A DNA stretch of 64,000 nt, from the IMG/VR virus record IMGVR_UViG_3300029733_000185. One strand, written 5' to 3'. Every line of letters begins with the position of its first letter. Positions within the stretch are counted from its first letter, which is position 1. This DNA comes from a virus (Duplodnaviria > Heunggongvirae > Uroviricota > Caudoviricetes). Shown piece by piece: positions 19,249-56,500 of this stretch. The notes below the pieces were generated by a model. It was not told the DNA's origin. It made no database searches and was given only the letters and a program-made list of their open reading frames with translations. A program made the translations under genes and the position numbers.

Positions 19249-19389
19249 ATTTGTTTCTCCTTACTAAAAAAATAAATCATATACAAAATAAAAAAACCGG
19301 CCCTTCAAATGCAAAAAAATAACATAAGAAGAGTCGGTGACTCAATTTCATATATAACTTTATATTTAAGTTATACCACAGCAAAACAG

Positions 19390-29641: not shown

Positions 29642-29717
29642 TGGTGGAAGCAGAGGGACTCGAACCCTCGACCTTCTGCTTGCAAAGCAGATGCTCTCCC
29701 AGTTGAGCTATGCCCCC
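29642..29717 (-). tRNA. tRNA-Ala(TGC)
   Basis: cloverleaf on minus strand; G3:U70 pair; anticodon loop CTTTGCAAG; CCA encoded. Confidence 0.8.
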
Positions 29718-29737
29718 AAATGAGAATCTTACCGAAA

Positions 29738-29813
29738 TGGTGGGAATAGTAGGTCTCGAACCTACGACCTCCTGCTTGTAAGGCAGGCGCTCTCCCAGCT
29801 GAGCTATATTCCC
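29738..29813 (-). tRNA. tRNA-Val(TAC)
   Basis: anticodon loop CCTTACAAG; T-loop TTCGAGA. Confidence 0.75.
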
Positions 29814-29816
29814 AAA

Positions 29817-29892
29817 TGGTGCCGGATCTCGGACTTGAACCGAACACCTCTGCGTTACGAAGGCAGCGCTCTACCAGATGAGCTAATCCAGC
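29817..29892 (-). tRNA. tRNA-Thr(CGT)
   Basis: anticodon loop TTCGTAA; C31-C39 mismatch. Confidence 0.6.
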
Positions 29893-29900
29893 GAAATGAG

Positions 29901-29976
29901 TGGTGCCACAGGCTGGAGTCGAACCAGCGACGCTCGGTTCTTCAGACCGACGCTCTACCTGCTGAGCTACCGTGGC
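29901..29976 (-). tRNA. tRNA-Phe(GAA)
   Basis: anticodon loop CTGAAGA. Confidence 0.8.
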
Positions 29977-29979
29977 ATA

Positions 29980-30055
29980 TGGTGCGAAATGCAGGACTTG
30001 AACCTACAACCTACGGCTTATCGAGCCGTTGCTCTGCCAATTGAGCTAATTTCGC
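29980..30055 (-). tRNA. tRNA-Ile(GAT)
   Basis: anticodon loop CTCGATAA. Confidence 0.75.
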
Positions 30056-30056
30056 A

Positions 30057-30132
30057 TGGTGATCGCAGTGGGATTCGAACCCACGATACAGGTTAGAAAG
30101 ACCTGCGGCTTAGACCGCTTGCCGATGCGACC
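30057..30132 (-). tRNA. tRNA-Glu(TTC)
   Basis: Glu-type D-loop AAGCGGTCTAAG; anticodon loop CTTTCTA with unusual U37. Confidence 0.55.
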
Positions 30133-30137
30133 GAAAA

Positions 30138-30214
30138 TGGTGAACGCACTGAGATTCGAACTCAGACTCTGCGGTTAGAGAGACCGCCATGTTAGCCTAT
30201 TACACTATGCGTCC
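30138..30214 (-). tRNA. tRNA-Glu(CTC)-like, isotype uncertain
   Basis: D-stem GTGT/ACAT; anticodon loop CTCTCTA (CTC with U37; alternative register would give TCT). Confidence 0.45.
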
Positions 30215-30217
30215 AAA

Positions 30218-30293
30218 TGGAGCAGGTGATCAGATTCGAACTGATGAATAATGGGTTTGCAGCCCACACCGTTAGCCTCTTCGGCACACCCGC
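30218..30293 (-). tRNA. tRNA-Cys(GCA)
   Basis: anticodon loop CTGCAAA; discriminator U73. Confidence 0.75.
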
Positions 30294-30300
30294 AAAAATA

Positions 30301-30376
30301 TGGCTCCCACGGCCAGACTTGAACTGACAACTTCCTGATTAACAGTCAGGCGCTCTACCGATTGAACTACGTGGGA
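30301..30376 (-). tRNA. tRNA-Asn(GTT)
   Basis: anticodon loop CTGTTAA; discriminator G73. Confidence 0.75.
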
Positions 30377-30380
30377 ATGT

Positions 30381-30457
30381 TGGCAGGGGCGGAGCGACTT
30401 GAACACTCGTGCCATGGTTTTGGAGACCAGGCGATTTCCTGTTATCTTTACGCCCCT
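30381..30457 (-). tRNA. tRNA-Trp(CCA), atypical D-arm
   Basis: acceptor AGGGGCG/CGCCCCT, anticodon loop CTCCAAA as in Bacillus tRNA-Trp; D-arm has an extra nucleotide. Confidence 0.55.
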
Positions 30458-30464
30458 GTATGTT

Positions 30465-30539
30465 TGGGTGGAATCCCGGGAGTCGAACCCAGATTACTTG
30501 TACCACAAACAAGCGTGCTACCGTTACACCAGAAACCAC
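30465..30539 (-). tRNA. tRNA-His(GTG)-like, possibly degenerate
   Basis: G-1:C73 feature and anticodon loop TTGTGGT, but two U-U mismatches in acceptor stem. Confidence 0.45.
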
Positions 30540-30617
30540 AAATGAGAAAGCGTATGTTTTGATTTTGCAACTATAATATAGAGCTGGGCTAAACATACAA
30601 AACAACTTCTACCCTTA

Positions 30618-30712
30618 TGGTGGTCGGAGATGAGGGAATCGAACCCACTCGAATGCCTAAGCACACCAGTTTTACAGACTGGGGTATCTACCTTAATACT
30701 TTAACCTCCGAT
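30618..30712 (-). tRNA. tRNA-Tyr(GTA)-like, long variable arm, irregular acceptor
   Basis: anticodon loop CTGTAAA, discriminator A73, long variable arm; A1-C72 mismatch. Confidence 0.45.
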
Positions 30713-30771
30713 TTATTAAATTGTCGCAGAATACCACGCCTGAACAACGGTTCAGACGTGGATAAATACAA

Positions 30772-32115
30772 CTATGCCGCGTTGTAAATTGTTTTTGCGT
30801 ATTTAAATGGTTGTAATTGCTTAACGCTTACAATTTTTTTGAATTCGTTATTTTTGATAGACACGTAAGTACCGCGGTTTTGTGTGCCAACCACTTCAAA
30901 TGTTCTGTTACGCCAAAGCACCGTATCATGTGGTTGGTACGGATATCGTTGTCTTCTGATAGATACTCTACCTTTGGAAATCTTTTGCTGTCTGTATGGA
31001 TGCAAGTTCTCACCATTCAGGTTTTTGTTACGAGTTGTTCTACCGCTAAATAATTCTTTACCGGTAGCCTTTTGACCCGTCCTTGCATCCACATATTTGG
31101 CATCGTGAAACTTTGCAAGACAACGATTATTTTTACGTTTCTCTTGCCAGAACACCGGTTCACACCGGTGCTTTGGCTGTTTGTCGCCGACACAATACGC
31201 ATCGTTGTAATGCGTTTTGTCTAACTGCAAATCTATCCGTTTGGATTTTGTCAAATAGCCAAAAGTCTCTACAACCGGAATCGTGTATTCATCACGCAGC
31301 TGTGTGATCAGCATTCGTCTGACCGTAGACATAAATGTCTCCGGTTTGAAAGACTTTTGCTTTGGTTGCAGACCATACAAAATCTGCCCCTTTTGATGAT
31401 TACGTGACGTATGACACTTGCTACACAGCGTTAATGTATTTGCAGGCGTATTTGAATGATCGTTTTTCCAATATCCGATATGATGCATGCGAAGCACTGC
31501 ACCATCTCGGAAAGCATTTTTACCACAGATCTGGCAAGTGTATCCGTCTCTGTAGAAAGTGTGCTCACGCAAATTTCGGAAGTCGTACATCTCGCCCTTT
31601 TGATATCCCTCACCGGAGATATCCGGGGTCTTTAATGCTTGAATATCGAAATTTGCGGTCTCTACATAGATCTTTGTAATCGGCAGAAGGCGCATCAACT
31701 TTCGAATGACCTTTTTGTGGCTGTCCAGCTTATGCTGAATGCTGGGTGCCAACCATTGGTCCGGTCTTCTGCGATTATCAAATCTTGGCTTGCGATGTCT
31801 CAAACGATTGCGACGCTTGCGACGATACGCTCGCCGGTCGTCTAATCGTTTGGACTGGTTTTCTAAAAGTTTTAATTCACCGGAAAACAACTCTTTGTTA
31901 TCAGTACAAGCAGAAATGCCAATATGCTGATAACCAGCATCGATTTTCAGATTAATGTCTTGTGTATTGTTTTCCGTCTCATAAAGCCATTGGATTGTAA
32001 ACGGATTGCCACTTACGACTTGAGCTTTATTGCTCTTCAACAGTTTGCGTACATAGCCACATCTTTCTGTTGGCATCAGTGGCTGGCCGTTTACATCTAA
32101 GACATACACCATCAT
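30772..32115 (-). CDS. iscB: IscB RNA-guided nuclease (PLMP, split RuvC, bridge helix, HNH, TI domains)
   Basis: 447 aa; N-terminus MVYVLDVNGQPLMPTERCGYVRKLLK (PLMP domain); RuvC-I LKIDAGYQHIGIS; Arg-rich bridge helix RRAYRRKRRNRLRHRK; HNH CQICG..HHI..N..CSKCH; RuvC-III HYNDAYCVG. Confidence 0.9.
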   Translation of the reverse strand: MMVYVLDVNGQPLMPTERCGYVRKLLKSNKAQVVSGNPFTIQWLYETENNTQDINLKIDAGYQHIGISACTDNKELFSGELKLLENQSKRLDDRRAYRRKRRNRLRHRKPRFDNRRRPDQWLAPSIQHKLDSHKKVIRKLMRLLPITKIYVETANFDIQALKTPDISGEGYQKGEMYDFRNLREHTFYRDGYTCQICGKNAFRDGAVLRMHHIGYWKNDHSNTPANTLTLCSKCHTSRNHQKGQILYGLQPKQKSFKPETFMSTVRRMLITQLRDEYTIPVVETFGYLTKSKRIDLQLDKTHYNDAYCVGDKQPKHRCEPVFWQEKRKNNRCLAKFHDAKYVDARTGQKATGKELFSGRTTRNKNLNGENLHPYRQQKISKGRVSIRRQRYPYQPHDTVLWRNRTFEVVGTQNRGTYVSIKNNEFKKIVSVKQLQPFKYAKTIYNAA

Positions 32116-32474
32116 AAGATATGGCTCCTTTCAATAAATTTGGTCTGGAATGACCAGCGCACAGACGGAGCCAAAGGCCCGGTCTGTGGTAAACCCACAT
32201 CGTCAATGTTATGAATTGTTTGTTGTGTACTGCACGTCTCCGACCCCATCAGAGATTTTTAACAACACACCGTAGTGCAAGGGGCTTGTGGAGCACCCCT
32301 TGGTACCTATTTGGCAGCCGAAGCTGCCATTAAAACATAACGTAGCACTCGAAGTGCTTAGACTAATCAACTATGGGCTTGTGATTTCTTACAAGCCCCA
32401 ACTGACTGTTTCACGGTTAGTCTGGGGTAATTGACAGTCAGGACCGCTACCGTTACGGAATATCGACGCATATA
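32116..32474 (-). ncRNA. omega-RNA of IscB (scaffold plus 5' guide region)
   Basis: about 360 nt non-coding region immediately upstream of iscB on the same strand; several stable stem-loops (GGGCTTGTGATTTCTTACAAGCCC, AAGGGGCTTGTGGAGCACCCCTT, CTGACTGT..ACAGTCAG). Confidence 0.65.
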
Positions 32475-32564
32475 CTGGTGCTGATAGTGGGAGTCGAACC
32501 CACACGGTGTTGCCACCATCGGGGCTTAAACCCGATGCGTGCTGCCAATTTCGCCATATCAGCA
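32475..32564 (-). tRNA. tRNA-Leu(TAA)
   Basis: 90 nt incl. CCA; anticodon loop TTTAAGC, long variable arm. Confidence 0.75.
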
Positions 32565-32629
32565 CATATAAATAGCCACACCTGATAGCCATACACACCA
32601 TTCAGTGTGGCTTTTTGCATTTATCGTTA

Positions 32630-33124
32630 TTATTTGGTAATCCGATCCGCAATTGTACTGGCCACAAAGGAATTTGGCTTGGTTTCAACATCGTAGCCGC
32701 AAGAGCGGATCCAACTTACCAACCCTGGGATAAGATCCTTTGTTTTCCCGTTAACCGAATTGCCCGCATCAATATGAATTGACAATGGATATTCTGCAAA
32801 CATCTCTCTATATATTGCATTACCCTCAAACATGTCTACCAGTTCCCCAGCCAAAGTTAACCTGGCAGCAGTTTCAGTTTGCAATTTGAGTTTTACATTT
32901 TGGATTAAGTCCTCACGAGAAACTTCGTAAAAGAAGATACCTCCATGTCCATGGGCAACAACCGCAATAACAGATACCATTTTTGTATTATTGAAATTTT
33001 GACTATCTGTGCCGACGATGATACTGATTTGATCTGTTTGTGCTTTATTACGCCGGTAATAAGCCAAGATAGCATCTGGAATTTCTGTAAGCTGTATTGA
33101 ATTCCCTGAACCGGTACAAAACAT
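32630..33124 (-). CDS. hypothetical protein embedded in tRNA array (possible RNase H-like fold)
   Basis: 164 aa, AAGGAGGG RBS; no secure motif; weak resemblance to YkuK/DUF458-like proteins. Confidence 0.45.
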   Translation of the reverse strand: MFCTGSGNSIQLTEIPDAILAYYRRNKAQTDQISIIVGTDSQNFNNTKMVSVIAVVAHGHGGIFFYEVSREDLIQNVKLKLQTETAARLTLAGELVDMFEGNAIYREMFAEYPLSIHIDAGNSVNGKTKDLIPGLVSWIRSCGYDVETKPNSFVASTIADRITK

Positions 33125-33148
33125 TGGACATACCCTCCTTGTAATTTT

Positions 33149-33236
33149 TGGCGGCGATGGAAGGATTCGAACCTTCGAGCCTTTTACAGCTAACGCGTTA
33201 GCAGTGCGCCGGTTTCAACCACTCACCCACATCGCC
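33149..33236 (-). tRNA. tRNA-Ser(GCT)
   Basis: 88 nt, long variable arm, anticodon loop CTGCTAA. Confidence 0.65.
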
Positions 33237-33240
33237 AAAA

Positions 33241-33316
33241 TGGTGCGCCGTTTGGGGTTCGAACCCAAGACCTCCAGATTAAGAGTCTGTTGCTCTACCG
33301 ACTGAGCTAACGGCGC
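33241..33316 (-). tRNA. tRNA-Lys(CTT)
   Basis: anticodon loop CTCTTAA. Confidence 0.7.
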
Positions 33317-33320
33317 ATAA

Positions 33321-33397
33321 TGGTCTGGACAACAGGATTCGAACCTGCGGTCTCCGGATCCCAAATCCGGCGCTTTACCAAACTAAGCTACGTCCAG
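33321..33397 (-). tRNA. tRNA-Pro(TGG)
   Basis: anticodon loop TTTGGGA. Confidence 0.75.
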
Positions 33398-33484
33398 ATA
33401 ACCAAATACATGCAGACAGATCAGATTTGCCGTGAAATATGTGCTCGACCACAGCAAGAATTCGATCTGATTTTGTCTGCATAT

Positions 33485-33559
33485 TGGCACCGCCTGCAGG
33501 ATTTGAACCCGCATTACAAGGTCCGTAGCCCTGTGTTCTGTCCTTTGAACTAAAGCGGT
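33485..33559 (-). tRNA. tRNA-Arg(ACG)
   Basis: anticodon loop CTACGGA. Confidence 0.75.
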
Positions 33560-33564
33560 GTATA

Positions 33565-33641
33565 TGGTGCCCCTACGAAGATTTGAACTCCGAATTGGGG
33601 ATTAGAAGTCCCCTGTTTTATCCAGATTAGACTATGGGGGC
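33565..33641 (-). tRNA. tRNA-Arg(TCT)
   Basis: anticodon loop CTTCTAA. Confidence 0.75.
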
Positions 33642-33644
33642 ATA

Positions 33645-33719
33645 TGGAAGCGATGCCGGGGATCGAACCCAGAATGCAAGAGTCAAAGTCTCGTGTTTTG
33701 CCGATTAGACTACATCGCC
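33645..33719 (-). tRNA. tRNA-Gln(TTG)
   Basis: anticodon loop CTTTGAC. Confidence 0.7.
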
Positions 33720-33838
33720 ATATAAGAGCAGGTTTTTCATTGACTGGGACACACACCAAAAATCTGGTGGAGGTGCGCAACGCTTCTCGTACTGCTATCT
33801 CGGCAATACCGAACGAGGCGAGTCCGGAACTCGCAAAT

Positions 33839-33924
33839 TGGTACTGGATAAGGGACTTGAACCCTTACGATCTAAATCAACGGATTTTGAATCCGTCGCG
33901 TCTGCCAAATTCCGCCAATCCAGT
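33839..33924 (-). tRNA. tRNA-Leu(CAA)
   Basis: 86 nt, long variable arm, anticodon loop TTCAAAA. Confidence 0.75.
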
Positions 33925-33939
33925 ATTTACATGAAAAAG

Positions 33940-34026
33940 TGGCGGGGCGTCAGGGACTCGAACCCTGAAGGCTGTTACACCCAACGGTTTTCAAGACCGC
34001 ACGACTACCAATTATCACAACGCCCC
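33940..34026 (-). tRNA. tRNA-Ser(TGA)
   Basis: 87 nt, long variable arm, anticodon loop CTTGAAA. Confidence 0.6.
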
Positions 34027-34120
34027 ACATATGCGGCAGACCGATATCGATCTGTTATAAGAACATTGGGAGAGGTGAATCACCCCTCTTATGCAGGAAC
34101 TCCTAAGTTACCTTGTTACA

Positions 34121-34197
34121 TGGCGACTCCGACCAGGCTCGAACTGGCAACCTCCAGCGTGACAGGCTGGCGCTCTACTCTTTTGAACTACGGAGCC
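34121..34197 (-). tRNA. tRNA-Asp(GTC)
   Basis: anticodon loop CTGTCAC. Confidence 0.8.
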
Positions 34198-34200
34198 ATA

Positions 34201-34286
34201 TGGTGCTCGATAAGAGATTCGAACTCTTACATCTTTCGATACCAGATCCTAAATCTGGCGCGTCTGCCAAATTCCGCCAATCGAGC
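34201..34286 (-). tRNA. tRNA-Leu(TAG)
   Basis: 86 nt, long variable arm, anticodon loop TTTAGGA. Confidence 0.75.
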
Positions 34287-34299
34287 AAATGAATAATAA

Positions 34300-34375
34300 T
34301 GGTGCGCCGTCAGAGAATTGAACTCTGGACCTTTAGATTATGAGTCTACTGCTCTAACCACTAAGCTAACGGCAC
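34300..34375 (-). tRNA. tRNA-Met or tRNA-Ile2 (CAT), elongator type
   Basis: anticodon loop CTCATAA; no initiator features. Confidence 0.65.
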
Positions 34376-34388
34376 AAACAACACAAAA

Positions 34389-34464
34389 TGGTGCGCGCAC
34401 GGGGACTCGAACCCCGGACCAATGGATTAAAAGCCCACTGCTCTACCAACTGAGCTATGCGCAC
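34389..34464 (-). tRNA. tRNA-Lys(TTT)
   Basis: anticodon loop CTTTTAA. Confidence 0.75.
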
Positions 34465-34477
34465 ATATTGGTTACAT

Positions 34478-34494
34478 CTATTAATACCACAAAT
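34478..34494 (-). promoter_or_regulatory. extended -10 promoter (TGTGGTATTAATA) driving tRNA sub-operon
   Basis: same TRTGnTATTAAT motif recurs at 22011-22026, 35941-35956, 38032-38046, 61755-61772. Confidence 0.45.
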
Positions 34495-34581
34495 TACAAA
34501 AAAACAAAAAAATGACCGGCTCAACAACGAAAGTTTTGATCGCGTTGAAACCGGCCAAGGTGCAATGAAAAAAATCCAAAG

Positions 34582-34658
34582 TGGAGCAGATAAGGGGATT
34601 TGAACCCCCACCACCGGTTTGGAAGACCGGGATGCTGACCATTGAACACCATATCTGC
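34582..34658 (-). tRNA. tRNA-Gly(TCC)
   Basis: anticodon loop CTTCCAA. Confidence 0.8.
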
Positions 34659-34663
34659 ATAAG

Positions 34664-34739
34664 TGGTGCTGGATATCTGACTCGAACAGATTACCTTCGG
34701 GTTACAAAGCCGACGTTCTACCAGGTGAACTAATCCAGC
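34664..34739 (-). tRNA. tRNA-Thr(TGT)
   Basis: anticodon loop TTTGTAA; C31-C39 mismatch as in the other Thr gene. Confidence 0.65.
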
Positions 34740-34768
34740 ATTTATGCGCCTTTGAAGGCGCTTGGATT

Positions 34769-35086
34769 TCAGGGCAAAATACACTCCAAAAAATGATGCA
34801 AATCAGGCATCGGAATGTATTCCCGCCGCACCTCAGCAATGTCCTTGCCGTCGCGATCATGCGGCAAGGCGTTATATTCTTTGACATAATTTTGCACAAG
34901 AGTATTGAGCAATTCTTGCTTCTTTTCTACCAGCTGCTTGCACTGGCGCAGAGACTCAACCGCAGAGACAATCTCATTTTCCTTTTCTCTGCGAACGTTT
35001 TCTCTGTCCTGTAAAGCGTTCTCAGCTGTTTTTAGCTGCTCTTCAGTGTCATATAGTTCTTTAGTCAATTCTGAAAAATATTTCAT
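34769..35086 (-). CDS. coiled-coil hypothetical protein
   Basis: 105 aa, heptad-rich, charged. Confidence 0.45.
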   Translation of the reverse strand: MKYFSELTKELYDTEEQLKTAENALQDRENVRREKENEIVSAVESLRQCKQLVEKKQELLNTLVQNYVKEYNALPHDRDGKDIAEVRREYIPMPDLHHFLECILP

Positions 35087-35253
35087 ATTTGTACCTCTCT
35101 TAAAAATAATTCAAACCTTTGAGTATTACGATAGCAGTTATCAGTAAAATGATAATCCTACTTAGCCATAAAACCCACTGTCTACTCGAAACACGCAGTG
35201 CATAAACGCACACAGATGTTGTTAGCGTAATGGCTATAAGCCAAATGAGACGA

Positions 35254-35409
35254 TTAGTCTCCAAACCACATCGTGCACCACTTCAAGATGCCCTCAACGT
35301 CTGGATCTACATGCTCTTTATTCTTGCAGGCGTTAACGATTAAATCAAACGCCTTTGCCTTATCGGCTGGCTTCATTTCAGTCAATGTTTCAAAATCTTT
35401 TTCAATCAA
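35254..35409 (-). CDS. small protein candidate (51 aa, TTG start) not in ORF track
   Basis: GAGGT RBS 8 nt upstream of TTG; balanced composition; coordinates +/-1. Confidence 0.25.
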   Translation of the reverse strand: MIEKDFETLTEMKPADKAKAFDLIVNACKNKEHVDPDVEGILKWCTMWFGD

Positions 35410-35462
35410 TGTTTATTACCTCTTTTGACAAATATTGTTGCACATTTGCCCGTGCCAGGCTT

Positions 35463-35538
35463 TGGGCCCGGGAGTGGGATTCGAACCCACGACTGTTGGC
35501 GTATGAGGCCAACCTGCTAACCGCTGCATTATCCCGGT
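35463..35538 (-). tRNA. tRNA-Met(CAT)-like, A1-G72 mismatch
   Basis: anticodon loop CTCATAC, T-loop TTCGAAT; mismatched first acceptor pair; not initiator-like (no GGG/CCC anticodon stem). Confidence 0.5.
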
Positions 35539-35967: not shown

Positions 35968-36537
35968 CTAAAAAATTAAGGAAAAAAGACAAAAAAGAAT
36001 AAGACTTAATGTACCAAAACGCAAGAAATGCCGGACTATCCAAAGCCACTGCACTTTTCCAATCCACCCAGCAATTGAATACGCACCACTACTCGTTCCC
36101 TTACGCGAATTACAAGTTCGACAAGCTGCAGCTAAATTCTTTTCGCAGTTGATGTTTTCAATCCCGGCCCTTTTAAGCAACCATTGTTTAAATTTGCTGC
36201 TTTTTACAGGCGCAATGGGAACAATATGATCTACTGTTACTTGGGCTTTTGGCAAAAGACGTCCACAGTACGCACAGAAGTAATGTCCGTCTATGCCTTT
36301 ATTGCATGAAAAAAAGGTTCGTCTATAAGATGAACCTCTTGTGAATGCTTGATTAACTAAACTATATCGCAAATGATGGCGCTTACAGTATTTTTCAACC
36401 TGTCGCTCCATCGACTCATCAAGCCCGTCAATAGATGTACATCTTTTTTGTTCATTTAAGAAGGGCTTAAACTCGTGTAAATCATTTCTGACGTATCTTT
36501 TCGTTGACCAGATGTCAACCACATAACTGTCTCCCAT
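35968..36537 (-). CDS. HNH endonuclease
   Basis: 189 aa; CAYCG...DHIVP...N..C..CNSRKG motif. Confidence 0.65.
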   Translation of the reverse strand: MGDSYVVDIWSTKRYVRNDLHEFKPFLNEQKRCTSIDGLDESMERQVEKYCKRHHLRYSLVNQAFTRGSSYRRTFFSCNKGIDGHYFCAYCGRLLPKAQVTVDHIVPIAPVKSSKFKQWLLKRAGIENINCEKNLAAACRTCNSRKGTSSGAYSIAGWIGKVQWLWIVRHFLRFGTLSLILFCLFSLIF

Positions 36538-47561: not shown

Positions 47562-50500
47562 TTACCACGGAGAAGTCTCACGTGTCTTGAAGTCGTCAAA
47601 CAGGCTTCCGTTGATCTTTACGGCGTTTGAATCACCAACATAGCTTAACATACCACTTGGCGTCCAGCAATCAGCAACACGAACCTGGATCTTGTAGTCC
47701 GTATCGTTTGGATACCATACCGGGACATGGTGCAGTGAACGTGCGCTGCTGTCCTCATCCTCATATTCCATAAACTTAAACCAATATGGGTTTTCGTTCG
47801 TGTTGGCACCAGTAGGACGCAATGATGCATAAGGTCCAAAATACTTTCTGTCAGTTGGAACCGATTTGAGTCCATACATCGCATACAACGCCGAGTATTT
47901 ACCATTGATTGTCTGGTAATTGTACTCTGGATAATATGCCAATGCAGATTGCGCGTTTACGCAACTATCATCTGGTAAAACAGGATCCGTCTTACGCTGT
48001 GGCGTTAAGTCCGCTGTTACTCGACTCTCAAGACTGTAACCGCTTTTGGTTTCCCAGTAATTCTCGTCGTTATTGTTTTCGACTTTTTTGCTTGGGTTCT
48101 GAGCACTGCCTGCACCGGTAGATGCCAGAGGTTTTAACAGATTCTCTTGGAAGCCAAGTCTTGCTGTGTAAGTATGCAGTTTAAACACTCCATTTTCGCA
48201 GGTGTATTCCTGCCATGAAGTCGTGTTCGCATACGGCTTGTCATTTGTCGGGTCTTTATAAGAATATCCATCTCCACCATTCAGGTTATAACCTTCATAA
48301 TTTGTGAAACTGGTATCGTCAAGATCGTTTAGCTGCACAAGGTTTTTGTCTTGCAGCCCTGAGTCGCAATACACAAACTGTCCATTCCCCTCGTCATTAT
48401 AACGTACCTGAACCCACGGTACGACACCATAGAACTTGTATCCCAATGATTCATAAGAGTCGTCAATTGAACTAACAGCAGGCGTTCTAACAGTATAATA
48501 AATCAGATTGTTCTTTGCAGCCGGTACTACAGCGGTTCTGGCGGCGTACTGACAGTTGTATCGACCAATCAATTTCTTATCGTATTTGACTTCCACATTT
48601 TCAATGGCTTCATACTGCCACTCTCCTGTGTTTAAATTATACAATTTGGCATACAGACCACCGGTCGCATTCAAAGCATTTTGATCGGTAAAGTTTTTCG
48701 TGCTGTGGTTATCCACTATAAAGGACGTTACAACATCCGTGCCATATGAATACTTTGCATTTGGATATTGGAATTTAACATCCACGGGCAGATACTTTTC
48801 ATTGACATAACAACCGACATTGTAAGTAGCACCTTTACTTCCGTCTGTCGGAACACCGCCAAACAAACCGATGTGCTTTTTTTCTGAATCTTTATGTCCT
48901 GGTGCTTCATAGCACAATTGATACTTTAAATTTGCTGTACCACTTGGTCCACACCCGAACCACATTGTTGATGGCTCTGAATAATACGCTGTCATAGAAT
49001 CCAAAAGCTCTTTCGGGAAGTAATAGCTAAATACAAACGGGAAATCTTCTTTGTTATAGTAAGAAGAAAGCTTTGTGTTTGCTTGTACTCCGCTTGAAAT
49101 AGCAAATCCCATATTTTCAATTTGCTCTTCTGGACTTAATGCAAAGACCTCTCCAAACTGCGCTGCCCAAGAGTTTTCATCGATCGTATCGCGATTTGTT
49201 TCCGGTCCGTACAGCATTTTCGCAAACTCTAATTCCGTCATAGTGTCGGAGCTAACATTTTTCTCTTTTACAGCACTGTCTGGGATTGCATACGGCAATA
49301 GATCCACCTGTCTCTTTAATGGGTCAATCGGATCCGTAGAGCCACCAGCGGCTTCATATGCTTCTTTTGACAGATAGGTGTTGACGACTATGCCAGCCGT
49401 ACACTCAACGTCAAATGAATGGTCTGCAGTAATATTTTCAAAGGTATAGCTACCACCACTCCAGTACTTATAAACGTCGCTGACTGTCTTTTCAGTGTCG
49501 AGTCCTTTATCAATCACAATCTTATTTACCATAAATCCGTCATTTGGCGTAAACTCAATGGTTTTTGTTTCGCCATACTGTATTTCGGTAATTGTATCTG
49601 TAATTGTGCCGTTTGTAATACTGGTAGTAATTGTAAACGCAGGCACACAAACCACCTCAATAGACTTATCACCTACAAGCATTTGCAATAAGTCAACACG
49701 ATATTCTTGCTTATTTGCATCCCAATTCCAAATCAACGGACGAGTTGGGGTAGCCTTGCCACCTTGTGTAACCTTCTTTCCGTCAATCAAGACGGTATCA
49801 ACACGATAGCCTGGATCTGGTTTGAACGTAACAATACCATATGCCTTTGCTTGACTATAGTTACCATAGCGCAATCCCGTTACCGTATCAGAAATCGTTC
49901 CGTGTTGAATGCTGGTCGTGATTTTACAAGTATTCAAATCCATTTCAGCAGTATAATGTTCAGTTCCCTCATATTGCAACAATGGAGCTCCTTGTATATC
50001 GCTTTTGAATTTAAATACCAGGTTTGCAGTTGCATTACCTACATTCCCATTATAATTGGTTGACGTTTTTCTGCCATACAAACCAAACAAACGACGCTCA
50101 TCTTCTTGAATCGAAGATTCAATACTTGACAATATCCGCACGCTCATTTTATAAGGGTGCGTGCTTACAGGATAACGAGAGTCAGAACCATCATTTTTTT
50201 CAATTTTATAACCAGTATAGAAAAAATTCGATTTTCCAAACCCTTCGTTTGTTCCAGCAGCGCCACCACACCAAGTATAGGAATAACCGTCATTGTCTTT
50301 TAATACATCTCCATTTTCAAGTGTAATAGGTGTCGTGTAATTTGGACGTGCATCCCACTGATTTAACCTTGTTAATGGAAGCTCAGTATCATCATTTGAC
50401 TCCCCAAGCGTATGAAGCGTATTGCCTAATGTAACCTTATTTCCTTTGTTTGCACCGGCTGTGACAACCGTATTCTGTAATTTGTTAATATTATCGACTT

Positions 50501-53500
50501 TTTGCTTTAACCGGTCAGATTGGAATTCGTATGCGCTTATACCAACAAAATCGCTTGGGCGAACACCGGTTTTAGTAAGCATTTCAAATGGATTTACAAC
50601 AATGTCTGGATTTTCTTTTAAGCTGTTTTTGATATTATACTTTGTTGCGGCATCAGTTGCGTATATATCAATCGTTGTTGTAGAACAAAGCACCTTCAGA
50701 ATAACAATAAATGAACCATCGCGAGGCAGATTGTGCAACTTAAAATCACTTAACATATTATATAACGCATCAGAAGATATAGTAGTATCCGAATTTCCAA
50801 AGTAAAAGACTTCTGAATTCTCGTAATCAATATCCTTACCCCGGTATGTCACATCATCCGGAGACTGCGGATAAAGAGACTTTAAAGCGGTATATTTAAT
50901 AAAAGCGTCATCGTCATCCTCGTGAATAGCGTTATATGCATTATCTGGTATATTTCCTAATGGATAATACTCCAAGGCGAAGCCATATGCGTTCAAGCCT
51001 TCCATACCTTGTTGTAATTGATTCACATAATCTTTATCATCAAAGCTTGTCACTGTACACGATTGACCGAGCGAAAGGTACTTGGCAGACTTCTTAACCG
51101 CAGTACCGTCTACGCTAATTGGCAAACCATTCGACGTTACTGCGTAGAATTCACCGTATACTGATGATGCATCCACGAAGTTCAGCAAAATATTATTTCC
51201 GTTTTTAAAAGGCATTTTAGACACATCAGACAAGCTTTCAAAGGCTGCACTGCTTTCTCGTCCTATTTCTGCCTTTAAATCAGAAACGGGTGTATAGCCA
51301 GACAAAGATTTTACAGTAGCGCTCAAATCTTCGTTGTCAGATTTTGAAAAATCGTCGCACAAAACATTGTAATACAAGTCTTCGCTTGATTTTACAGTTA
51401 CAGAAATCCGATATTTTTTAATCAACTTAAAGTTTGATTTAGCTTTGCTGAACGCAGTTGTGTAAAAGCTGATACCCTTTGTTAACAAGCCGGCATTGTC
51501 ATCAGAATTCAAATTCCAGCCGTTGGCAAATTCTGTGACCTGCATAGCATTGTTGGACTCTTTTTCAGCTTTATAATCATCATAGCTAACAGAAAAATCA
51601 AACTCCGACTTCGTTTTTTCATCACGATATTGATAAGTCTTATTGTAATTTAATACTCTTGGAAGATCAGCTGCCGTTGGCTTGGTGTCGCGGCCATTGA
51701 TTAACATTTCGACAGCATTTGCCGTATCTGCCATAAGATTTGTGTCTGCCGTCTTGCCGACATCTCTCAGATTCACAGAAGTGTAAGGAGTGAATTTTCC
51801 GGAATTATTTTTTGTATAAAATCGAATGGTTGGCTCTGCATTTTTAAAAAACGAAAGCCCATCGTAAGACTTCATATCAATGGCGTCAAAATACATTGTA
51901 ATGGTTTGTTCATGCAATTTATCTGACTTCAGATAATAATCGGCCTTTGCATATTTTCCTGTATATGTAACCTTTTGAGACGGCTCATCAAACCATACGG
52001 AGCTTTTTTTGTTTTCCCAAACATTGACTGCTTTCCCATTTTGAATAAATGAAAAATCAAAACGATAGTTGCCAGGTTCCTTAGGATAGTACGCATAATT
52101 AAAATACACAGAACCATCATTTCCTAAAGACATATCTTTACTAACATCGATTTCTTTATCCAATTCTACAGCCTGATATTCACCTGTTTCGTCCTGCTTA
52201 TACACACTCAGCGACAATTTCTCGATCGGCGAATTACCATCTTCATCCGGATTTAAATTCATGGAATTAAGATGCGTATGCACACGCAAATCCACATAAG
52301 CCGCACTGTACAAATCAACTTCTGTTAGATAATTTTTCCCGATAACCGATTTTTGACCTGTAACCTTCGCGCCTGCAAAAGCCTTCAAAGATGAAACAAC
52401 CGTCTTTTCCTCGACCGTCTCAAAAGGCTTACCAACCTGTGCGTCAGCGTTATTAACGGCATCGTATGAGTAATAACTTAGTTTAACAGATTGATAATCC
52501 TGAATATTCTTATCGTCTTGTCCCACTCTAAAATCATGATCAGGAAGAATCAAAAATTTATAAGAATCAGCATCACCTTTAAACTCGACCATTCCGTTTT
52601 CATCGGTCTTGTACACCTTTACGTCTGGATCAGAATTTGGCTCACCGCAAACAGAACAATACAAGTCAGAATATTTGTTGTAGACGTAAAATGTACTCGC
52701 ATGGTTGAATATATTGTTTTCATCTAACCAGTCCAGTACCTCACCACATGCCGGGCATTTGATTGCACCCAAAGAACAATGTTCACCGCAAACGCTACAC
52801 TCACGATAAGAACACCCAGCGCAAACCCATTTTAAATCTTCCGGGTTTTCTGATTTTGCAAAGTCATCAAACTTATCGTTTGAAAGTACCAAAATTGAAG
52901 CGTTTTGTGCGGGCTTGCGTGTGCCGTCTGAAGAATCATAAATAACCAACCGGTTAAATTGGTCTCCGACATAACACTCTGCATCATATTCTCTTACTTG
53001 TCCTGTATATCGTATGCCACCGCCGGTCACTTCATCTTGATAATAATATCGATCAGTTGTGTTGTCACGAATAACAAAGTAATAGTAATAACCGACTTGC
53101 AGTTCGCTACTTTCCAGTCTCACCTGTGCATAAGACGGATAAAGTACAGTAGAGCACTGCGTTGTGCCTGGTGCTTGTAAGGTGCCACACTCATAGCACT
53201 GCCATCTCTTTGCTTGATCTTTGCACAGCCACTTCGTGCTGTTTCCGATTTTTACTTCATAAAATGTTTTTACAATCAGATCTTCTGGCGCTACTTCTAC
53301 AGAAGAACTACATAGATTGATAGGCATCGCAGATAAAAAGCCGTCACTGCTCATTTGATATGGAGTCGTTTTGTGAATAATTTTGTTGCTTTTTTGTAAC
53401 GCTTCAACATTATTTCCTTCAACCCAGTGACCGCCCGGGCAATATACAAAGGATTTTGATTTACCAGTGTATTCATAGCCAGCAACACCATACTGCTTAC

Positions 53501-56500
53501 CAGTGCATCTCTCCGGGTATTGAGGATTATTGAGTGTGTTTGGCGTTGCGGTCGTCAATTTATCGGTTACATCCTTTACGTACTCCACATCATACATTGA
53601 ACCTTGACAAGTCAGCGTAGAGTTAGAATGGCCACAGGTAGAGCACTTCCAAGTCTTGGACGAAGCCGTTTGTTGCATATAGGTATTTGTGCATGTTTCT
53701 CCATCGCATTCAAAACCACTATTTGTAGTTCCGCACTTTGAACATTGCCATGCTTCCGGAACAACCCAAAACTCAGGGACACTTCCCTGGTCGTCGATAG
53801 ATTTACCGCAGTCTGGACAAATAGAAGCATTCTCTACGATACTACCGCATGAGCACTTCCAAGCATAGTCGTTTTGAGCCGTCAAATAATCAGTGAAATT
53901 TGAACCACACTTTTCATTGATGTTGTTGAACAATTCATCCGCATTGACCGGCAGCGAAGAAAGTGACTTGGATCGATACAAAAGCAGCTGAGAACCGGTT
54001 TTAAGCAGATTTAAAGCCCCAACAGCTTCGTCTCCGCGAGCAAACAAATTATACTCAATACCGCCTTCACCATCGCCCTTAGGCATATAATACAGATACA
54101 CATTCAGAGTGCCGTGCATTTCATCAACAGTAAAATCAGGCTCCGCTGCTACTTCTTTATGTTGGTAGTTACCAAACACATCTATGTAACCATAAGCACC
54201 AACATAATCGCATGTGCTTCCACCATATTCTACAGATTCTTTGAAATATGGAACGTTTTCTGTAGTCGTTGTTGTATTGCCGTCAGCGTCCGTCTGTTCA
54301 ACGGTATCTTCATAATAACCGCCTTTAAATGTAAACGCTTTAGCTGCGTCCCAATCCAGAACCTTCGATGACACAATAGCGTTGTCTTCATAGATAGAAG
54401 AACTATTGTAATCAAAGCTGTCTGTCAATGCCACATAGTTCAGAATGACTTTAGAATCACTGACCGGAGCAAATGTAACATGGATATCAGAAGCCTTCAA
54501 AGATGCAACATTCGTGTTGAAGGACATTTTATAGAACTGCTCACTGTTTTGTGGATAAAGTGTTCTGGAACCAACAGGGCTGCCGTCTTTATTTACTGCA
54601 CCATCGTCTACAACAATGCTCACAATCTTAAAGCCAGTTGATTTTGGAATCGAAACCGTAACTACCTTGCCCAATGAGTTATTGTCCGTTACATACATAT
54701 CTGTTTCCACAGAATTTTCGTATTCAGTTGAAGCTCCGGCCTGCCCGGAAGGCTTAATCGCCTTGTTGCTCCCCTCTTGAAGCGTCCAGTTATCTGATAC
54801 GCTTACCCATTTGGAGATTTTCTTTTGTGCCTCATCTGCAGCTTCTTTTGCATCAGCCGCAGCTGCCACCGCCTGATCATCACTTGGATCAATTGTTACA
54901 TCTTTATAATTGGACTCATAATAATTGATGGCATTTAGCAAATCATCAATTCCGGACAAAGAACCGGCTGCTGAAATATTGTTTTGCAGCTGCCACTGCG
55001 CATAATAGGTTACTTCACCTTCAGCAGGCGTCTTGATCGTCGTTACCTGATCTTTAGCATAATCATAGTTATCTGCCGTAGCGCCCCAGCCCTTGAATGT
55101 CCTGTTCAGATCTTCCAAATCGCCGTTCAGCCCGGCTATTGCAGCTGTGCCCGTACAATCATGCCCCTTTACTGAAGGCGCATTGATCGTCTGTCCAACG
55201 TTAGCAGTTGTTGAACTGATCGTTGCACCACACAGCGCACAAGCGAAGTTTACCGTAGACTGCAGCGTGAATGTGTACTTTGCATAATACACTGTCACTT
55301 TAGCACTTGGCATTGTAATGTCATTGCCGACAGTCAATGAAGCATTATCCGACTTATCATTCACCGTATAATCAGGATTTGTTCCCCAATAGCTGAATGC
55401 AATTTTATAATCACTCAGCGGATGACCTTTGTATTGCAAATTACTTAAATTGCTGGAGTCATTATGAGACTCGCCTGCAGGCACAGGACCCTGTGTTGAG
55501 CCTGGTGCACCACGCAGCAGCGCAATCTCATTTTCATCAATGGAACACTTAAATAAAACTTTGTTTTCATTCGTCAACTTGAGGGTGTACTTTGCATAAT
55601 ACTTTTGCGTGCTGCTTGGCACAGTTGTTTGAGAACCGGCCTTATGGTTGCTCAACACGCTCAAGCTATCGTTCAGTGTGCCGGTAGCCAGCTTATCATT
55701 TGCATTGCTGTCTTGCCCCCAACCTTGGAATGTGATTGAATAATCTCCAACATCAATGGTCTTGCCATTGTATGTAATCTTTCCACCGTTGACAGAGCAC
55801 ACATGTTTTGAACCGGTTGGGATAGTGTACTTTTCTCCGGCGTAATGTTCTCTGTCATTTTTACTGGTTGAAGTATCATACAGTTGTGCTCCGCACAAAC
55901 CGCAGTAATACACTGCTCTGCCCTTTGCGTTCTCTTTCTTATCCAGGCACATCCAGAATGTGGTATCGCCATAAATCTTTTTCTGACTTGGCGTCGGATT
56001 GGTCATTTTTGAGCCATTCTTTGACGCGCTCCAATGTTTATAGCTATAAGTATATTTGTAGTTGTTGTGCTTTTGAGGATGCGTCTTTTCTTGGTCGTTG
56101 AAGTAGCTTCCGGAAACTGTCTCACCATGTGCCACAGCAATCATCTTTAAGGTCGCTCCATCTTCAGAACATTTTAAATAAGCCTTATGTGCCACGGTCT
56201 TTAGATTAAACAGCACACGCACGGTATCATAACGACCACCACAGATATAGCCCTTAACACCGGCAGTTTTATCTTTGCCCTGGAAATACGTTGCTTTGTT
56301 ATAAATATCAGGTGCATTCATATGCCAAGCCAAATTGACAGACACATTGGACCGGCGGGATGTGTAGAATGTCAGCTTATTACCGCTCACTTCTACCTTC
56401 ATAAACGGTTCTGCAGGTTTTGTTTTCAGCTTAGCGGAGCTTACTGGAACATAGCCATAATAGCTGCTATCCTTTTTTTGCTTGTTACCAAAATACACGC

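What the first reader, a model, noticed from the sequence alone, without database searches (positions are those of the whole stretch)
30057..30712. Several non-canonical or possibly degenerate tRNAs in the array
The His(GTG)-like gene has G-1:C73 but two U-U mismatches in the acceptor stem. The Tyr(GTA)-like gene has an A1-C72 mismatch and extra nucleotides before the D-stem. The Trp(CCA) gene has an extra D-arm nucleotide. Both Glu-type genes have U at position 37. Both Thr genes have a C31-C39 mismatch. The Met(CAT)-like gene at 35463 has an A1-G72 mismatch. These could be pseudogenes, tRNAs that need editing, or deliberately altered tRNAs. Phage tRNAs sometimes evade host anticodon nucleases or act as decoys.
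Basis: seen in the sequence. Interest (0 to 1): 0.5.

Follow-up and report, generated by a model that had tools for sequence, protein, structure and literature searches.

The report
Conserved odd-shaped tRNAs in phage array
The odd tRNA genes in this phage's 28-gene tRNA cluster are not decaying copies: each oddity is a conserved trademark shared with tRNAs of many unrelated phages, so the changes look selected, possibly to escape host enzymes that attack tRNAs.

Summary
The window is part of a large uncultivated phage. Its minus strand carries 28 tRNA genes (29642-35538), all with encoded CCA, covering all 20 amino acids. Nearly all the reported oddities are real:
- His has G-1:C73 plus U4.U69 and U5.U68.
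- Both Glu genes have U37.
- Both Thr genes have C31.C39.
- Trp has one extra A before the D stem.
- The outlying Met(CAU) has A1.G72.
- Tyr has two extra nucleotides before the D stem.

The reported Tyr A1-C72 mismatch is a register error. The acceptor stem is a clean C1-G72 helix, and the real extra oddity is U50.U64 in the T stem.

None of these genes looks like a pseudogene. A 98.3%-identical relative keeps them with fewer changes than the flanking DNA. Every oddity recurs in independent phage lineages with compensatory changes around it. The Tyr type occurs in at least 112 viral contigs, with 51 distinct sequences all showing the 4-nt connector and A73. Tandem pyrimidine mismatches are enriched in phage His tRNAs, and 31.39 mismatches in phage Thr tRNAs. 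U37 Glu tRNAs occur in at least 120 viral contigs.

Synthetase identity elements are intact except A37 of Glu. Selection is well supported. Escape from host tRNA-targeting enzymes is inferred, not shown.

The parts
29642..35538 (-). Phage tRNA array: 28 tRNA genes covering all 20 amino acids, all with encoded CCA. It is interrupted by an IscB/HEARO element and a few small ORFs.
   Evidence: ARAGORN finds 27 genes at the default threshold and Trp at a lowered threshold. Rfam finds 26 above the gathering score.
30465..30539 (-). tRNA-His(GUG) with encoded G-1:C73 and a 2x2 internal loop (U4.U69, U5.U68) in the acceptor stem.
   Evidence: (46.4 bits). Mismatches at the same positions occur in L213, L235, L248, L239, L250 and L373, with covarying pairs 6-67 and 7-66.
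30621..30710 (-). Class II tRNA-Tyr(GUA) with C1-G72 and A73. It has a 4-nt connector (UAAA) between the acceptor and D stems, D loop UAAGGUAG, U50.U64 in the T stem and a 4-bp variable arm.
30381..30457 (-). tRNA-Trp(CCA) with one extra A between the acceptor and D stems, A10.G25 and C27.U43. It carries the complete bacterial Trp identity set.
   Evidence: (27.2 bits). Homologues with the same extra A are L377, L388 and L412.
30057..30132 (-). tRNA-Glu(UUC) with anticodon loop CUUUCUA (U37, A38) and G2.U71.
   Evidence: (56.3 bits); U37 Glu tRNAs in at least 120 viral contigs.
30138..30214 (-). tRNA-Glu(CUC) with anticodon loop CUCUCUA (U37, A38) and G2.U71. Its inner anticodon stem and loop match those of the UUC gene.
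   Evidence: (58.7 bits).
29817..29892 (-). tRNA-Thr(CGU) with C31.C39.
   Evidence: (52.7 bits); statistics for the Thr mismatch.
34664..34739 (-). tRNA-Thr(UGU) with C31.C39.
   Evidence: (59.5 bits); L145 has C31.C39, and L083, L084 and L036 have C31.U39.
35463..35538 (-). tRNA(CAU) with A1.G72, C73 and three G:C pairs at the base of the anticodon stem. It is probably an initiator-type tRNA.
   Evidence: (57.4 bits); relatives with the same anticodon arm have C1.U72, C1.C72 or U1.U72.

Best explanation
These are working phage tRNA genes, and their deviations from the textbook cloverleaf are kept by selection. The phage carries a full set of 28 tRNAs, one or more for each amino acid. They are presumably transcribed from the minus strand, trimmed by host RNase P and 3' nucleases, and need no CCA addition. 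Host synthetases would charge them, because the known identity elements are intact:
- His: G-1:C73 and GUG.
- Tyr: A73, G34 and U35, and a long variable arm.
- Trp: G73, A1-U72, G2-C71 to G5-C68, A9 and CCA.
- Thr: G1-C72, C2-G71, G4-C69, G5-C68, G35 and U36.

The odd features sit outside these elements. Each is a family trademark shared with tRNAs of unrelated phages. The features are a two-nucleotide insertion after position 9 plus a pyrimidine 50.64 mismatch in Tyr, a tandem pyrimidine mismatch in the His acceptor stem, U37 in Glu, C31.Y39 in Thr, one extra A in Trp, and an unpaired 1.72 in a CAU tRNA. The last is the normal hallmark of bacterial initiator tRNA.

The most likely purpose is inferred, not shown. 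The set would keep phage translation running when host tRNAs are depleted or cut. The altered sites would make the phage copies poor substrates for host tRNA-targeting nucleases or modifying enzymes while leaving them usable by synthetases, EF-Tu and the ribosome.

My probabilities: about 0.85 that the genes are functional and the features selected; about 0.4 that the selective agent is host tRNA-targeting defence. The single confidence value of 0.55 is a compromise between those two.
For: Conservation in a close relative:
- L001 is 98.3% identical over 19.5 kb.
- The tRNAs show 15 differences in 2,200 nt, against 92 in 3,697 nt of non-tRNA array DNA (Fisher p = 1.4e-7).
- The eight odd genes show 3 differences in 623 nt (p = 5e-4).
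- Two of those three changes turn G.U into Watson-Crick pairs, at His 50-64 and Thr 3-70.

Tyr:
- The T-arm motif GAGTGGGTTCRATTCCCTC occurs in 112 IMG/VR contigs.
- It occurs in only 31 of 185,579 species genomes.
- 91 of 103 viral loci with this tRNA hold five or more tRNAs.
- Of 51 distinct sequences, 51 have A73 and 51 have a UA+NN connector.
- The three outer D-stem pairs form in 51/51 only in the 4-nt register, and in 0/51 in the canonical register.
- Each stem pair shows 3 to 6 canonical pair types.

His: 12 of 94 distinct phage His tRNAs have tandem internal acceptor mismatches, against 48 of 2,566 others (p = 6e-7).

Thr: 20 of 108 Thr(UGU/CGU) have a 31.39 mismatch, against 60 of 2,528 others (p = 1e-11).

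Glu: 42 distinct, otherwise regular Glu tRNAs have the loop CUYUCUA. They came from a scan that hit its 120-contig limit.

Trp: three further lineages share UAAAGAUAA..GGA.AAUCG with different acceptor stems. Trp also completes the set of 20 amino acids.

Met: 13 of 51 CAU tRNAs in related arrays have a 1.72 mismatch.

Literature:
- Identity sets are taken from PMC9976931.
- Phage tRNAs with altered loops are predicted to resist anticodon nucleases (PMC10264068).
- T5 tRNA-Tyr rescues phage from retron-Eco7 (PMC11555353).
Against: - No expression, processing, charging or cleavage data exist for any of these genes.
- The host is unknown, so phage and host tRNAs cannot be compared at the altered positions.
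- U37 removes A37, a strong GluRS determinant in E. coli (PMC9976931), so the Glu pair may be charged poorly or by a different rule.
- U37 Glu is rare where it was not selected for: it appears only in this lineage among 89 Glu tRNAs.
- Most changes (His, Tyr, Trp) are not in the anticodon loop, where the documented evasion mutations lie.
- Five Blautia genomes carry the Tyr type next to ordinary chromosomal genes, so at least that form may be a host-lineage trait rather than a phage invention.
- The enrichment tests count distinct sequences that are related by descent, so the p-values overstate independence.
- Trp and Tyr fall below the curated Rfam thresholds.
Confidence: 0.55

Rival explanations
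1. The features are tolerated, historically inherited quirks. The phage lineages copied tRNAs from hosts such as Clostridia or Lachnospiraceae whose own tRNAs have these shapes. The features are functional but carry no counter-defence meaning.
For: - Blautia genomes hold the U50.U64, 4-nt-connector Tyr gene beside an Arg(ACG) gene, among RelA/SpoT, hydrolase and GH43 genes.
- G50.U64 and U64 are common in other Tyr tRNAs.
- A 1.72 mismatch is simply the normal initiator feature (PMC9976931).
Against: - The exact Tyr T arm is found in only 31 of 185,579 species genomes, mostly inside dense tRNA arrays.
- The T arm, including the mismatch, is invariant while every stem around it has turned over. 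That indicates direct selection on the mismatch.
- The 50.64 pair stays pyrimidine-pyrimidine in L505 (C.C).
- The His and Thr mismatches recur in sequence-unrelated backbones.
Confidence: 0.3
2. Some of the genes are not used for decoding. Trp, Tyr and the U37 Glu pair in particular might be decoys or sponges for host nucleases, or serve other RNA roles.
For: - Trp and Tyr score below the Rfam thresholds.
- The Glu genes lack the A37 determinant.
- The decoy idea is compatible with phage tRNA-rich regions that protect against tRNA-degrading defences (PMC11555353).
Against: - Anticodons, discriminator bases, identity pairs, T loops, G18G19 and CCA ends are all conserved.
- Without Trp and Tyr the set would not cover 20 amino acids.
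- In the T5-like phage SP15, rescue from retron-Eco7 required an intact anticodon in the phage tRNA-Tyr (PMC11555353).
Confidence: 0.1
3. The genes are pseudogenes or degenerating duplicates, or the oddities are sequencing or assembly errors, or they are repaired by RNA editing.
For: - Low model scores for Trp (27.2 bits) and Tyr (no tRNA-model match).
- Several stem mismatches.
Against: - An independent assembly (L001) has the same features, with zero differences in Trp, Tyr, both Glu genes and Met2.
- The same features occur in dozens to hundreds of other contigs.
- There is compensatory covariation.
- Each anticodon is single-copy in the array, so none of these genes is a redundant duplicate.
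- Pyrimidine-pyrimidine mismatches are not correctable by known base editing.
Confidence: 0.04

Closest known systems
tRNA-rich regions of large virulent phages (T5 and T5-like phages, mycobacteriophage cluster C1) and the anticodon-nuclease-evasion hypothesis (van den Berg et al. 2023, PMC10264068; Azam et al. 2024, PMC11555353; PARIS/T5 tRNA-Lys, PMC11464382)
   Same: Like those, this is a dense array of about 30 tRNA genes in a large phage. The tRNAs differ from textbook or host forms while keeping their anticodons. The Glu U37 and Thr 31.39 changes lie in the anticodon arm, like the changes described there.
   Different: The host and its nucleases are unknown here. Most deviations are structural and lie outside the anticodon loop: the His acceptor internal loop, the Tyr connector insertion and T-stem mismatch, and the Trp connector insertion. 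Those papers do not describe such changes.
Allo-tRNAs and tRNA-Sec-like tRNAs with 8/4, 9/3, 8/5 or 9/4 acceptor/T domains (Mukai et al. 2017, PMC5389517; review PMC7609411)
   Same: The Tyr gene has a long variable arm and a longer D stem. Its best Rfam match is tRNA-Sec (38.8 bits), and its sequence can be drawn as 9/3.
   Different: Relatives with the same 4-nt connector have fully paired 5-bp T stems (U50-A64, C50-G64), and 9:64 does not covary. The fold is therefore 7/5 with two inserted nucleotides. It has A73 and a conserved GUA anticodon rather than G73 with scattered anticodons. The 2020 review never mentions phage, and its four mentions of tRNA-Tyr (one was displayed) gave no sign of this form.
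Bacterial initiator tRNA-fMet
   Same: It has a CAU anticodon, an unpaired 1.72 and three consecutive G:C pairs next to the anticodon loop. Relatives with the same anticodon arm have C1.U72, C1.C72 or U1.U72 with A73.
   Different: The mismatch is A.G instead of C.A. The discriminator is C73, not A73. Pair 11-24 is U-A rather than A-U, and pair 31-39 is C-G rather than G-C.
Canonical bacterial tRNA-His with encoded G-1
   Same: It has G-1 opposite C73, a GUG anticodon and an 8-bp-long acceptor helix.
   Different: Positions 4-69 and 5-68 form a tandem pyrimidine-pyrimidine internal loop. That loop is conserved in a subset of phage His tRNAs.

Membership tests
tRNA (Rfam RF00005) | Covariance-model score at or above the gathering score of 29 bits | tested here: met
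   His 46.4, Glu(UUC) 56.3, Glu(CUC) 58.7, Thr(CGU) 52.7, Thr(UGU) 59.5, Met2 57.4 bits.
tRNA (Rfam RF00005) | The same threshold, applied to Trp and Tyr | tested here: not met
   Trp scores 27.2 bits. Tyr has no RF00005 match and is best matched by RF01852. Both are nonetheless tRNAs by ARAGORN, by family covariation and by RNAfold.
Bacterial tRNA-His | G-1 paired with C73; GUG anticodon | tested here: met
   G at 30539, C73 at 30468, anticodon GUG (identity set from PMC9976931).
Bacterial class II tRNA-Tyr | A73, G34 and U35, long variable arm | tested here: met
   The window gene and all 51 family members have A73, loop CUGUA(A/G)A and a 13-17 nt variable region.
Bacterial class II tRNA-Tyr | Canonical two-nucleotide connector (positions 8 and 9) between the acceptor and D stems | tested here: not met
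   The connector is 4 nt in 51/51 members, and the canonical register forms the D stem in 0/51.
tRNA-Sec (Rfam RF01852) | Score of at least 47 bits; UCA anticodon; 13-bp acceptor/T domain | tested here: not met
   The score is 38.8 bits. The anticodon is GUA, and the domain is 7+5 bp.
Allo-tRNA (8/4 or 9/3) | Acceptor stem lengthened at the expense of the T stem | tested here: not met
   Relatives with the same connector keep 5-bp T stems: L575 and L558 have U50-A64, and L584 has C50-G64. Those bases would mismatch A9 in a 9/3 fold.
Bacterial initiator tRNA | Unpaired 1.72 | tested here: met
   A1.G72.
Bacterial initiator tRNA | Three consecutive G:C pairs closing the anticodon stem | tested here: inconclusive
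   G29-C41 and G30-C40 are present, but pair 31-39 is C-G rather than G-C.
Bacterial initiator tRNA | A11:U24 and A73 | tested here: not met
   The gene has U11-A24 and C73.
E. coli-type tRNA-Glu identity set | U34 U35 C36 A37, G1-C72, U2-A71 | tested here: not met
   Both genes have U37 and G2.U71, while G1-C72 and U35 C36 are present (identity set from PMC9976931).
Nuclease-resistant phage tRNAs | The tRNA differs from the host tRNA at a nuclease recognition or cleavage site and resists cleavage | not testable with these tools
   The host and its nucleases are unknown, and no biochemical data exist.

The most novel reading that the evidence does not exclude
Large phages carry a set of redesigned tRNA families that has not been catalogued. 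They include a tRNA-Tyr with two inserted nucleotides after position 9 and a fixed pyrimidine 50.64 mismatch, a tRNA-His with a tandem pyrimidine internal loop in the acceptor stem, Glu and Asp tRNAs with U37, and Thr tRNAs with an opened 31.39 pair. On this reading, the altered positions mark where still-unknown host tRNA-targeting defences or modification enzymes grip their substrates. That would include sites outside the anticodon loop.
Probability: 0.3. Interest if true: 0.75.

Novelty: new variant of a known kind. Interest (0 to 1): 0.5.

Why it matters
Why phages carry tRNAs is an old question. The current idea is that they replace host tRNAs destroyed by defence nucleases, and it rests mainly on anticodon-loop changes in a few cultured phages. 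This window, with the families traced from it, gives concrete conserved structural variants that can be synthesised and tested. Possible tests are charging, ribosome use and resistance to tRNA-cutting defences. The variants also expose blind spots of standard tRNA finders: the Tyr and Trp genes are missed or fall below threshold. A tRNA-Tyr with an insertion in the core that still keeps its identity elements may interest people who engineer tRNAs. If the features turn out to be host-lineage quirks, the result is ordinary.

Tried and rejected
- **Megablast of the array against cultured phages:** only a 43-nt chance-sized match.
- **Blastn of the Tyr gene against cultured phages:** nothing at E <= 1e-3. 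A family consensus found only distant Tyr tRNAs with G50.U64, in T4-like, Bixzunavirus and Kolpuevirus phages.
- **Synteny route through the adjacent topoisomerase gene**: it gave only the near-identical L001, one truncated contig (L079), and relatives without arrays next to the gene.
- **A 9/3 allo-tRNA-like fold for Tyr:** rejected.
- **An alternative T arm pairing G47-C65 and A48-U64 with a bulge:** position 47 varies without compensation, so it is not supported.
- **The Met2 pattern (15 nt):** too short, so most hits were coding sequence and only about six were tRNAs.
- **A blast search for U37 Glu tRNAs in cultured phages:** uninformative.
- **Promoter and terminator consensus scan of the array:** 11 promoter-like sites against 13.5 expected, and 13 terminator-like sites against 7.3 +/- 3.0 expected. 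No transcription units could be defined.
- **Pfam scan of neighbouring ORFs:** no tRNA repair or modification enzyme and no synthetase was found.
Full report
**What the window is**

The window has about 40% G+C, and almost all long ORFs are on the minus strand. Profile matches point to a large tailed phage. They include a terminase large subunit, a tape-measure or lysin-like protein, a RecD/Dda-like helicase and a type IA topoisomerase. No cultured phage resembles it at the DNA level. IMG/VR contig 3300029365_000474 (147.8 kb, locus L001) is 98.3% identical over 19.5 kb.

**The array**

ARAGORN finds 27 tRNA genes on the minus strand between 29642 and 35538. Rfam finds 26 of them above its gathering score. 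A 28th gene, Trp(CCA) at 30381-30457, appears only at a lowered ARAGORN threshold and at 27.2 bits in Rfam, where the gathering score is 29. With Trp, the set covers all 20 amino acids, and every gene encodes its CCA end.

**Checking the observation**

Hand reading of the sequence and the ARAGORN cloverleafs confirm the following:
- His has G-1:C73 with U4.U69 and U5.U68.
- Both Glu genes have U37 (loops CUUUCUA and CUCUCUA).
- Both Thr genes have C31.C39.
- The outlying CAU gene has A1.G72.
- Trp has an extra nucleotide before the D stem (UAAA, then GAU...AUC). It also has A10.G25 and C27.U43.
- Tyr has four nucleotides instead of two between the acceptor and D stems.

The reported Tyr A1-C72 mismatch is not real. 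It comes from starting the gene two bases too early, at 30712. With the A73-CCA end that all other genes use, the acceptor stem is C1-G72 followed by six further pairs. The genuine further irregularity is U50.U64 in the T stem.

The Rfam tRNA model misses the Tyr gene. Its best match is tRNA-Sec at 38.8 bits, below that family's threshold of 47.

RNAfold alone gives the cloverleaf as the minimum-energy fold for five genes: His (with its internal loop), Tyr (with the 4-nt connector), Trp, Glu(CUC) and Met2. For Glu(UUC) and the two Thr genes, the unconstrained fold differs in the D or anticodon arm.

**Are the genes decaying?**

They are not. Between the window and L001 the 28 tRNAs differ at 15 of 2,200 positions. 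The non-tRNA part of the array differs at 92 of 3,697 positions (p = 1.4e-7). The eight odd genes differ at 3 of 623 positions (p = 5e-4). Trp, Tyr, both Glu genes and Met2 are identical in the two phages. Two of the three changes convert G.U to Watson-Crick pairs, at His 50-64 and Thr(CGU) 3-70.

**The Tyr family**

An exact search with the anticodon arm found two other phages, L083 and L084. Their 90-nt Tyr genes have the same architecture, with compensatory changes in the acceptor stem, D stem and variable arm.

- **Distribution in viral contigs.** The shared T arm, GAGTGGGTTCRATTCCCTC, occurs in 112 IMG/VR contigs. In almost all of them it belongs to a Tyr(GUA) tRNA. Of 103 such viral loci, 91 hold five or more tRNAs.
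- **Distribution in cellular genomes.** The motif occurs in only 31 of 185,579 species-representative genomes. Most of those hits lie in dense tRNA arrays on MAG contigs. Five Blautia genomes are an exception: there it is a Tyr-Arg gene pair among ordinary chromosomal genes.
- **Conserved architecture.** Among 51 distinct sequences, A73 is invariant and the connector is always UA plus two variable bases. The D loop is UAAGG(N)1-2(A/U)G or a close variant. The three outer D-stem pairs form in all 51 sequences in the 4-nt register only. Each acceptor, D-stem and anticodon-stem pair shows 3 to 6 canonical pair types with almost no mismatches. C1-G72 (26 sequences) and G1-C72 (24) are both common.
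- **Testing the 9/3 fold.** The sequence can also be drawn as a 9/3 allo-tRNA-like fold, with A9-U64 and U8.C65. I tested this with a metagenome scan that did not constrain the T stem. Relatives with the same connector have U50-A64 (L575, L558), C50-G64 (L584), G50.U64 (L513) or C50.C64 (L505). The fold is therefore 7/5 with two inserted nucleotides. In the main family, position 50.64 is a fixed pyrimidine-pyrimidine mismatch.
- **Comparison with cultured phages and the literature.** Tyr tRNAs from a T4-like phage, a Bixzunavirus and a Kolpuevirus have G50.U64. The T4-like gene also shows the UAUC-CCG connector. A 2020 review of non-canonical tRNAs never mentions phage, and its few mentions of tRNA-Tyr gave no sign of this form.

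**The His family**

A search on the D arm and anticodon loop, together with the arrays already held, gave further His tRNAs with mismatches at the same two positions:

| Locus | Position 4-69 | Position 5-68 |
|---|---|---|
| L213 | U.U | C.C |
| L235 | U.U | C.U |
| L248 | U.U | U.U |
| L239, L250, L373 | U.U | C.U |

Another group has U.U/U.U one step further down the stem. Pairs 6-67 and 7-66 covary. Tandem internal acceptor mismatches occur in 12 of 94 distinct His tRNAs, against 48 of 2,566 tRNAs of other types (p = 6e-7).

**Glu**

A pattern for CUYUCUA at the right distance from a T loop hit the 120-contig limit of the viral scan. It yielded 42 distinct, otherwise regular Glu tRNAs with very different backbones. 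In arrays not selected for this feature, U37 Glu occurs only in this phage lineage, among 89 Glu tRNAs. U37 is common in Asp(GUC), at 19 of 62.

A37 is a strong GluRS determinant in E. coli (PMC9976931), so charging of these two genes is the least certain. For a eukaryotic tRNA-Glu anticodon nuclease, U34-U35-C36-A37-C38 is required for optimal cutting (PMC2275089). That shows positions 37 and 38 can decide nuclease sensitivity. No bacterial counterpart was identified here.

**Thr**

A 31.39 mismatch (C.C, C.U, A.C or U.U) is present in 20 of 108 distinct Thr(UGU/CGU) tRNAs. It is present in 60 of 2,528 other tRNAs (p = 1e-11) and in none of 22 Thr(GGU).

**Trp**

Three further viral contigs (L377, L388, L412) share the D arm UAAAGAUAA..GGA.AAUCG with the extra A, but have different acceptor stems. 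Close relatives (L421, L397, L399, L406) have UAAGAU, without the extra A. The window gene carries the full bacterial Trp identity set: G73, A1-U72, G2-C71 to G5-C68, A9 and CCA.

**Met2**

An unpaired 1.72 is the main formylation determinant of bacterial initiator tRNA (PMC9976931).
- In related arrays, 13 of 51 CAU tRNAs have such a mismatch.
- tRNAs with the same anticodon arm have C1.U72, C1.C72 or U1.U72 with A73.
- One of them, L471, has G1-C72 with C73.
- The window gene has three G:C pairs at the base of the anticodon stem, but it has U11-A24 and C73.

Its assignment as an initiator is therefore probable, not firm.

**How it most likely works**

Shown:
- The gene set is complete and each gene ends in CCA.
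- The odd features are conserved, and their surroundings covary.
- Identity elements are intact for His, Tyr, Trp and Thr.

Inferred:
- Transcription, processing and charging by host enzymes, and use in phage translation.
- The reason for the changes.

The best available frame is that phage tRNAs replace host tRNAs depleted by defence nucleases and carry changes that blunt those nucleases (PMC10264068; PMC11555353). This fits the Glu and Thr changes directly. For the acceptor, connector and T-stem changes of His, Trp and Tyr, it fits only by extension. I give about 0.85 to 'functional and selected' and about 0.4 to 'selected by host tRNA-targeting enzymes'. The main rival is that the features are lineage traits inherited from hosts such as Blautia-like Clostridia.

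**Limits**

- The host is unknown and there are no RNA data.
- The family counts use distinct sequences that share ancestry.
- The literature search was limited to the open-access library. 'Not described' therefore means not found in the papers read.

**Verdict**

The pseudogene and editing readings are not supported, and the 'altered on purpose' reading is supported as selection. The window adds a member to several conserved non-canonical phage tRNA families. At least the Tyr, His and Trp forms appear undescribed. This is a new variant of a known kind, of moderate interest.

Noticed in passing
window 30772-32435 (-): An IscB-type gene lies inside the tRNA array, between Leu(UAA) and Tyr. It is a 447-aa ORF at 30772-32115 with Pfam RRXRR and HNH domains. 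Its HEARO/omega RNA lies directly upstream at 32189-32435 (129 bits against a gathering score of 83). The 98.3% relative L001 spans the same region. I saw no transposase gene next to it.
   Followed up: partly
window 32630-33124 (-): A 164-aa ORF inside the array, between Ser(GCU) and Leu(UAA), matches Pfam RNaseH_like PF04308 (E = 4e-35). Its role next to the tRNAs is unknown.
   Followed up: no
window 35968-36537 (-): A small HNH endonuclease ORF (189 aa) sits just upstream of the array. It may be a homing endonuclease.
   Followed up: no
Arg(UCU) has C6.A67 and a D-stem mismatch, and in L001 its G1 is A, giving A1.C72. Ser(GCU) has A31.C39. Lys(CUU) has A27.G43 and the first Met(CAU) has G27.A43.
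   Followed up: partly
related loci (L083-L620): A pyrimidine at position 37 recurs in other phage tRNAs. Asp(GUC) has U37 in 19 of 62 distinct sequences, and Leu(CAG) has C37 in 8 of 12. A Trp(CCA) group (the L086 type) has U37, and L084 has a Glu(UUC) with C33.
   Followed up: partly
L195, L208, L214, L216, L220 (Blautia genomes): The non-canonical Tyr(GUA) gene (4-nt connector, U50.U64, no encoded CCA) sits next to Arg(ACG). The pair lies among RelA/SpoT-like, hydrolase and GH43 genes, which is not an obvious prophage context. This may point to the host lineage or to the origin of the family.
   Followed up: partly
L205, L215 and other related arrays: Several related phage arrays include a tRNA with anticodon CUA, which ARAGORN labels 'Pyl'. 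This suggests amber-suppressor tRNAs and possibly stop-codon reassignment in those phages. No such tRNA is present in this window.
   Followed up: no
window 47562-57713 (-): A single ORF of 3,383 aa. It was not examined.
   Followed up: no
window about 19284-19287 versus L001 19542-21138: The close relative L001 has about 1.6 kb that the window lacks at this point, so there is an insertion or deletion difference between the two phages.
   Followed up: no
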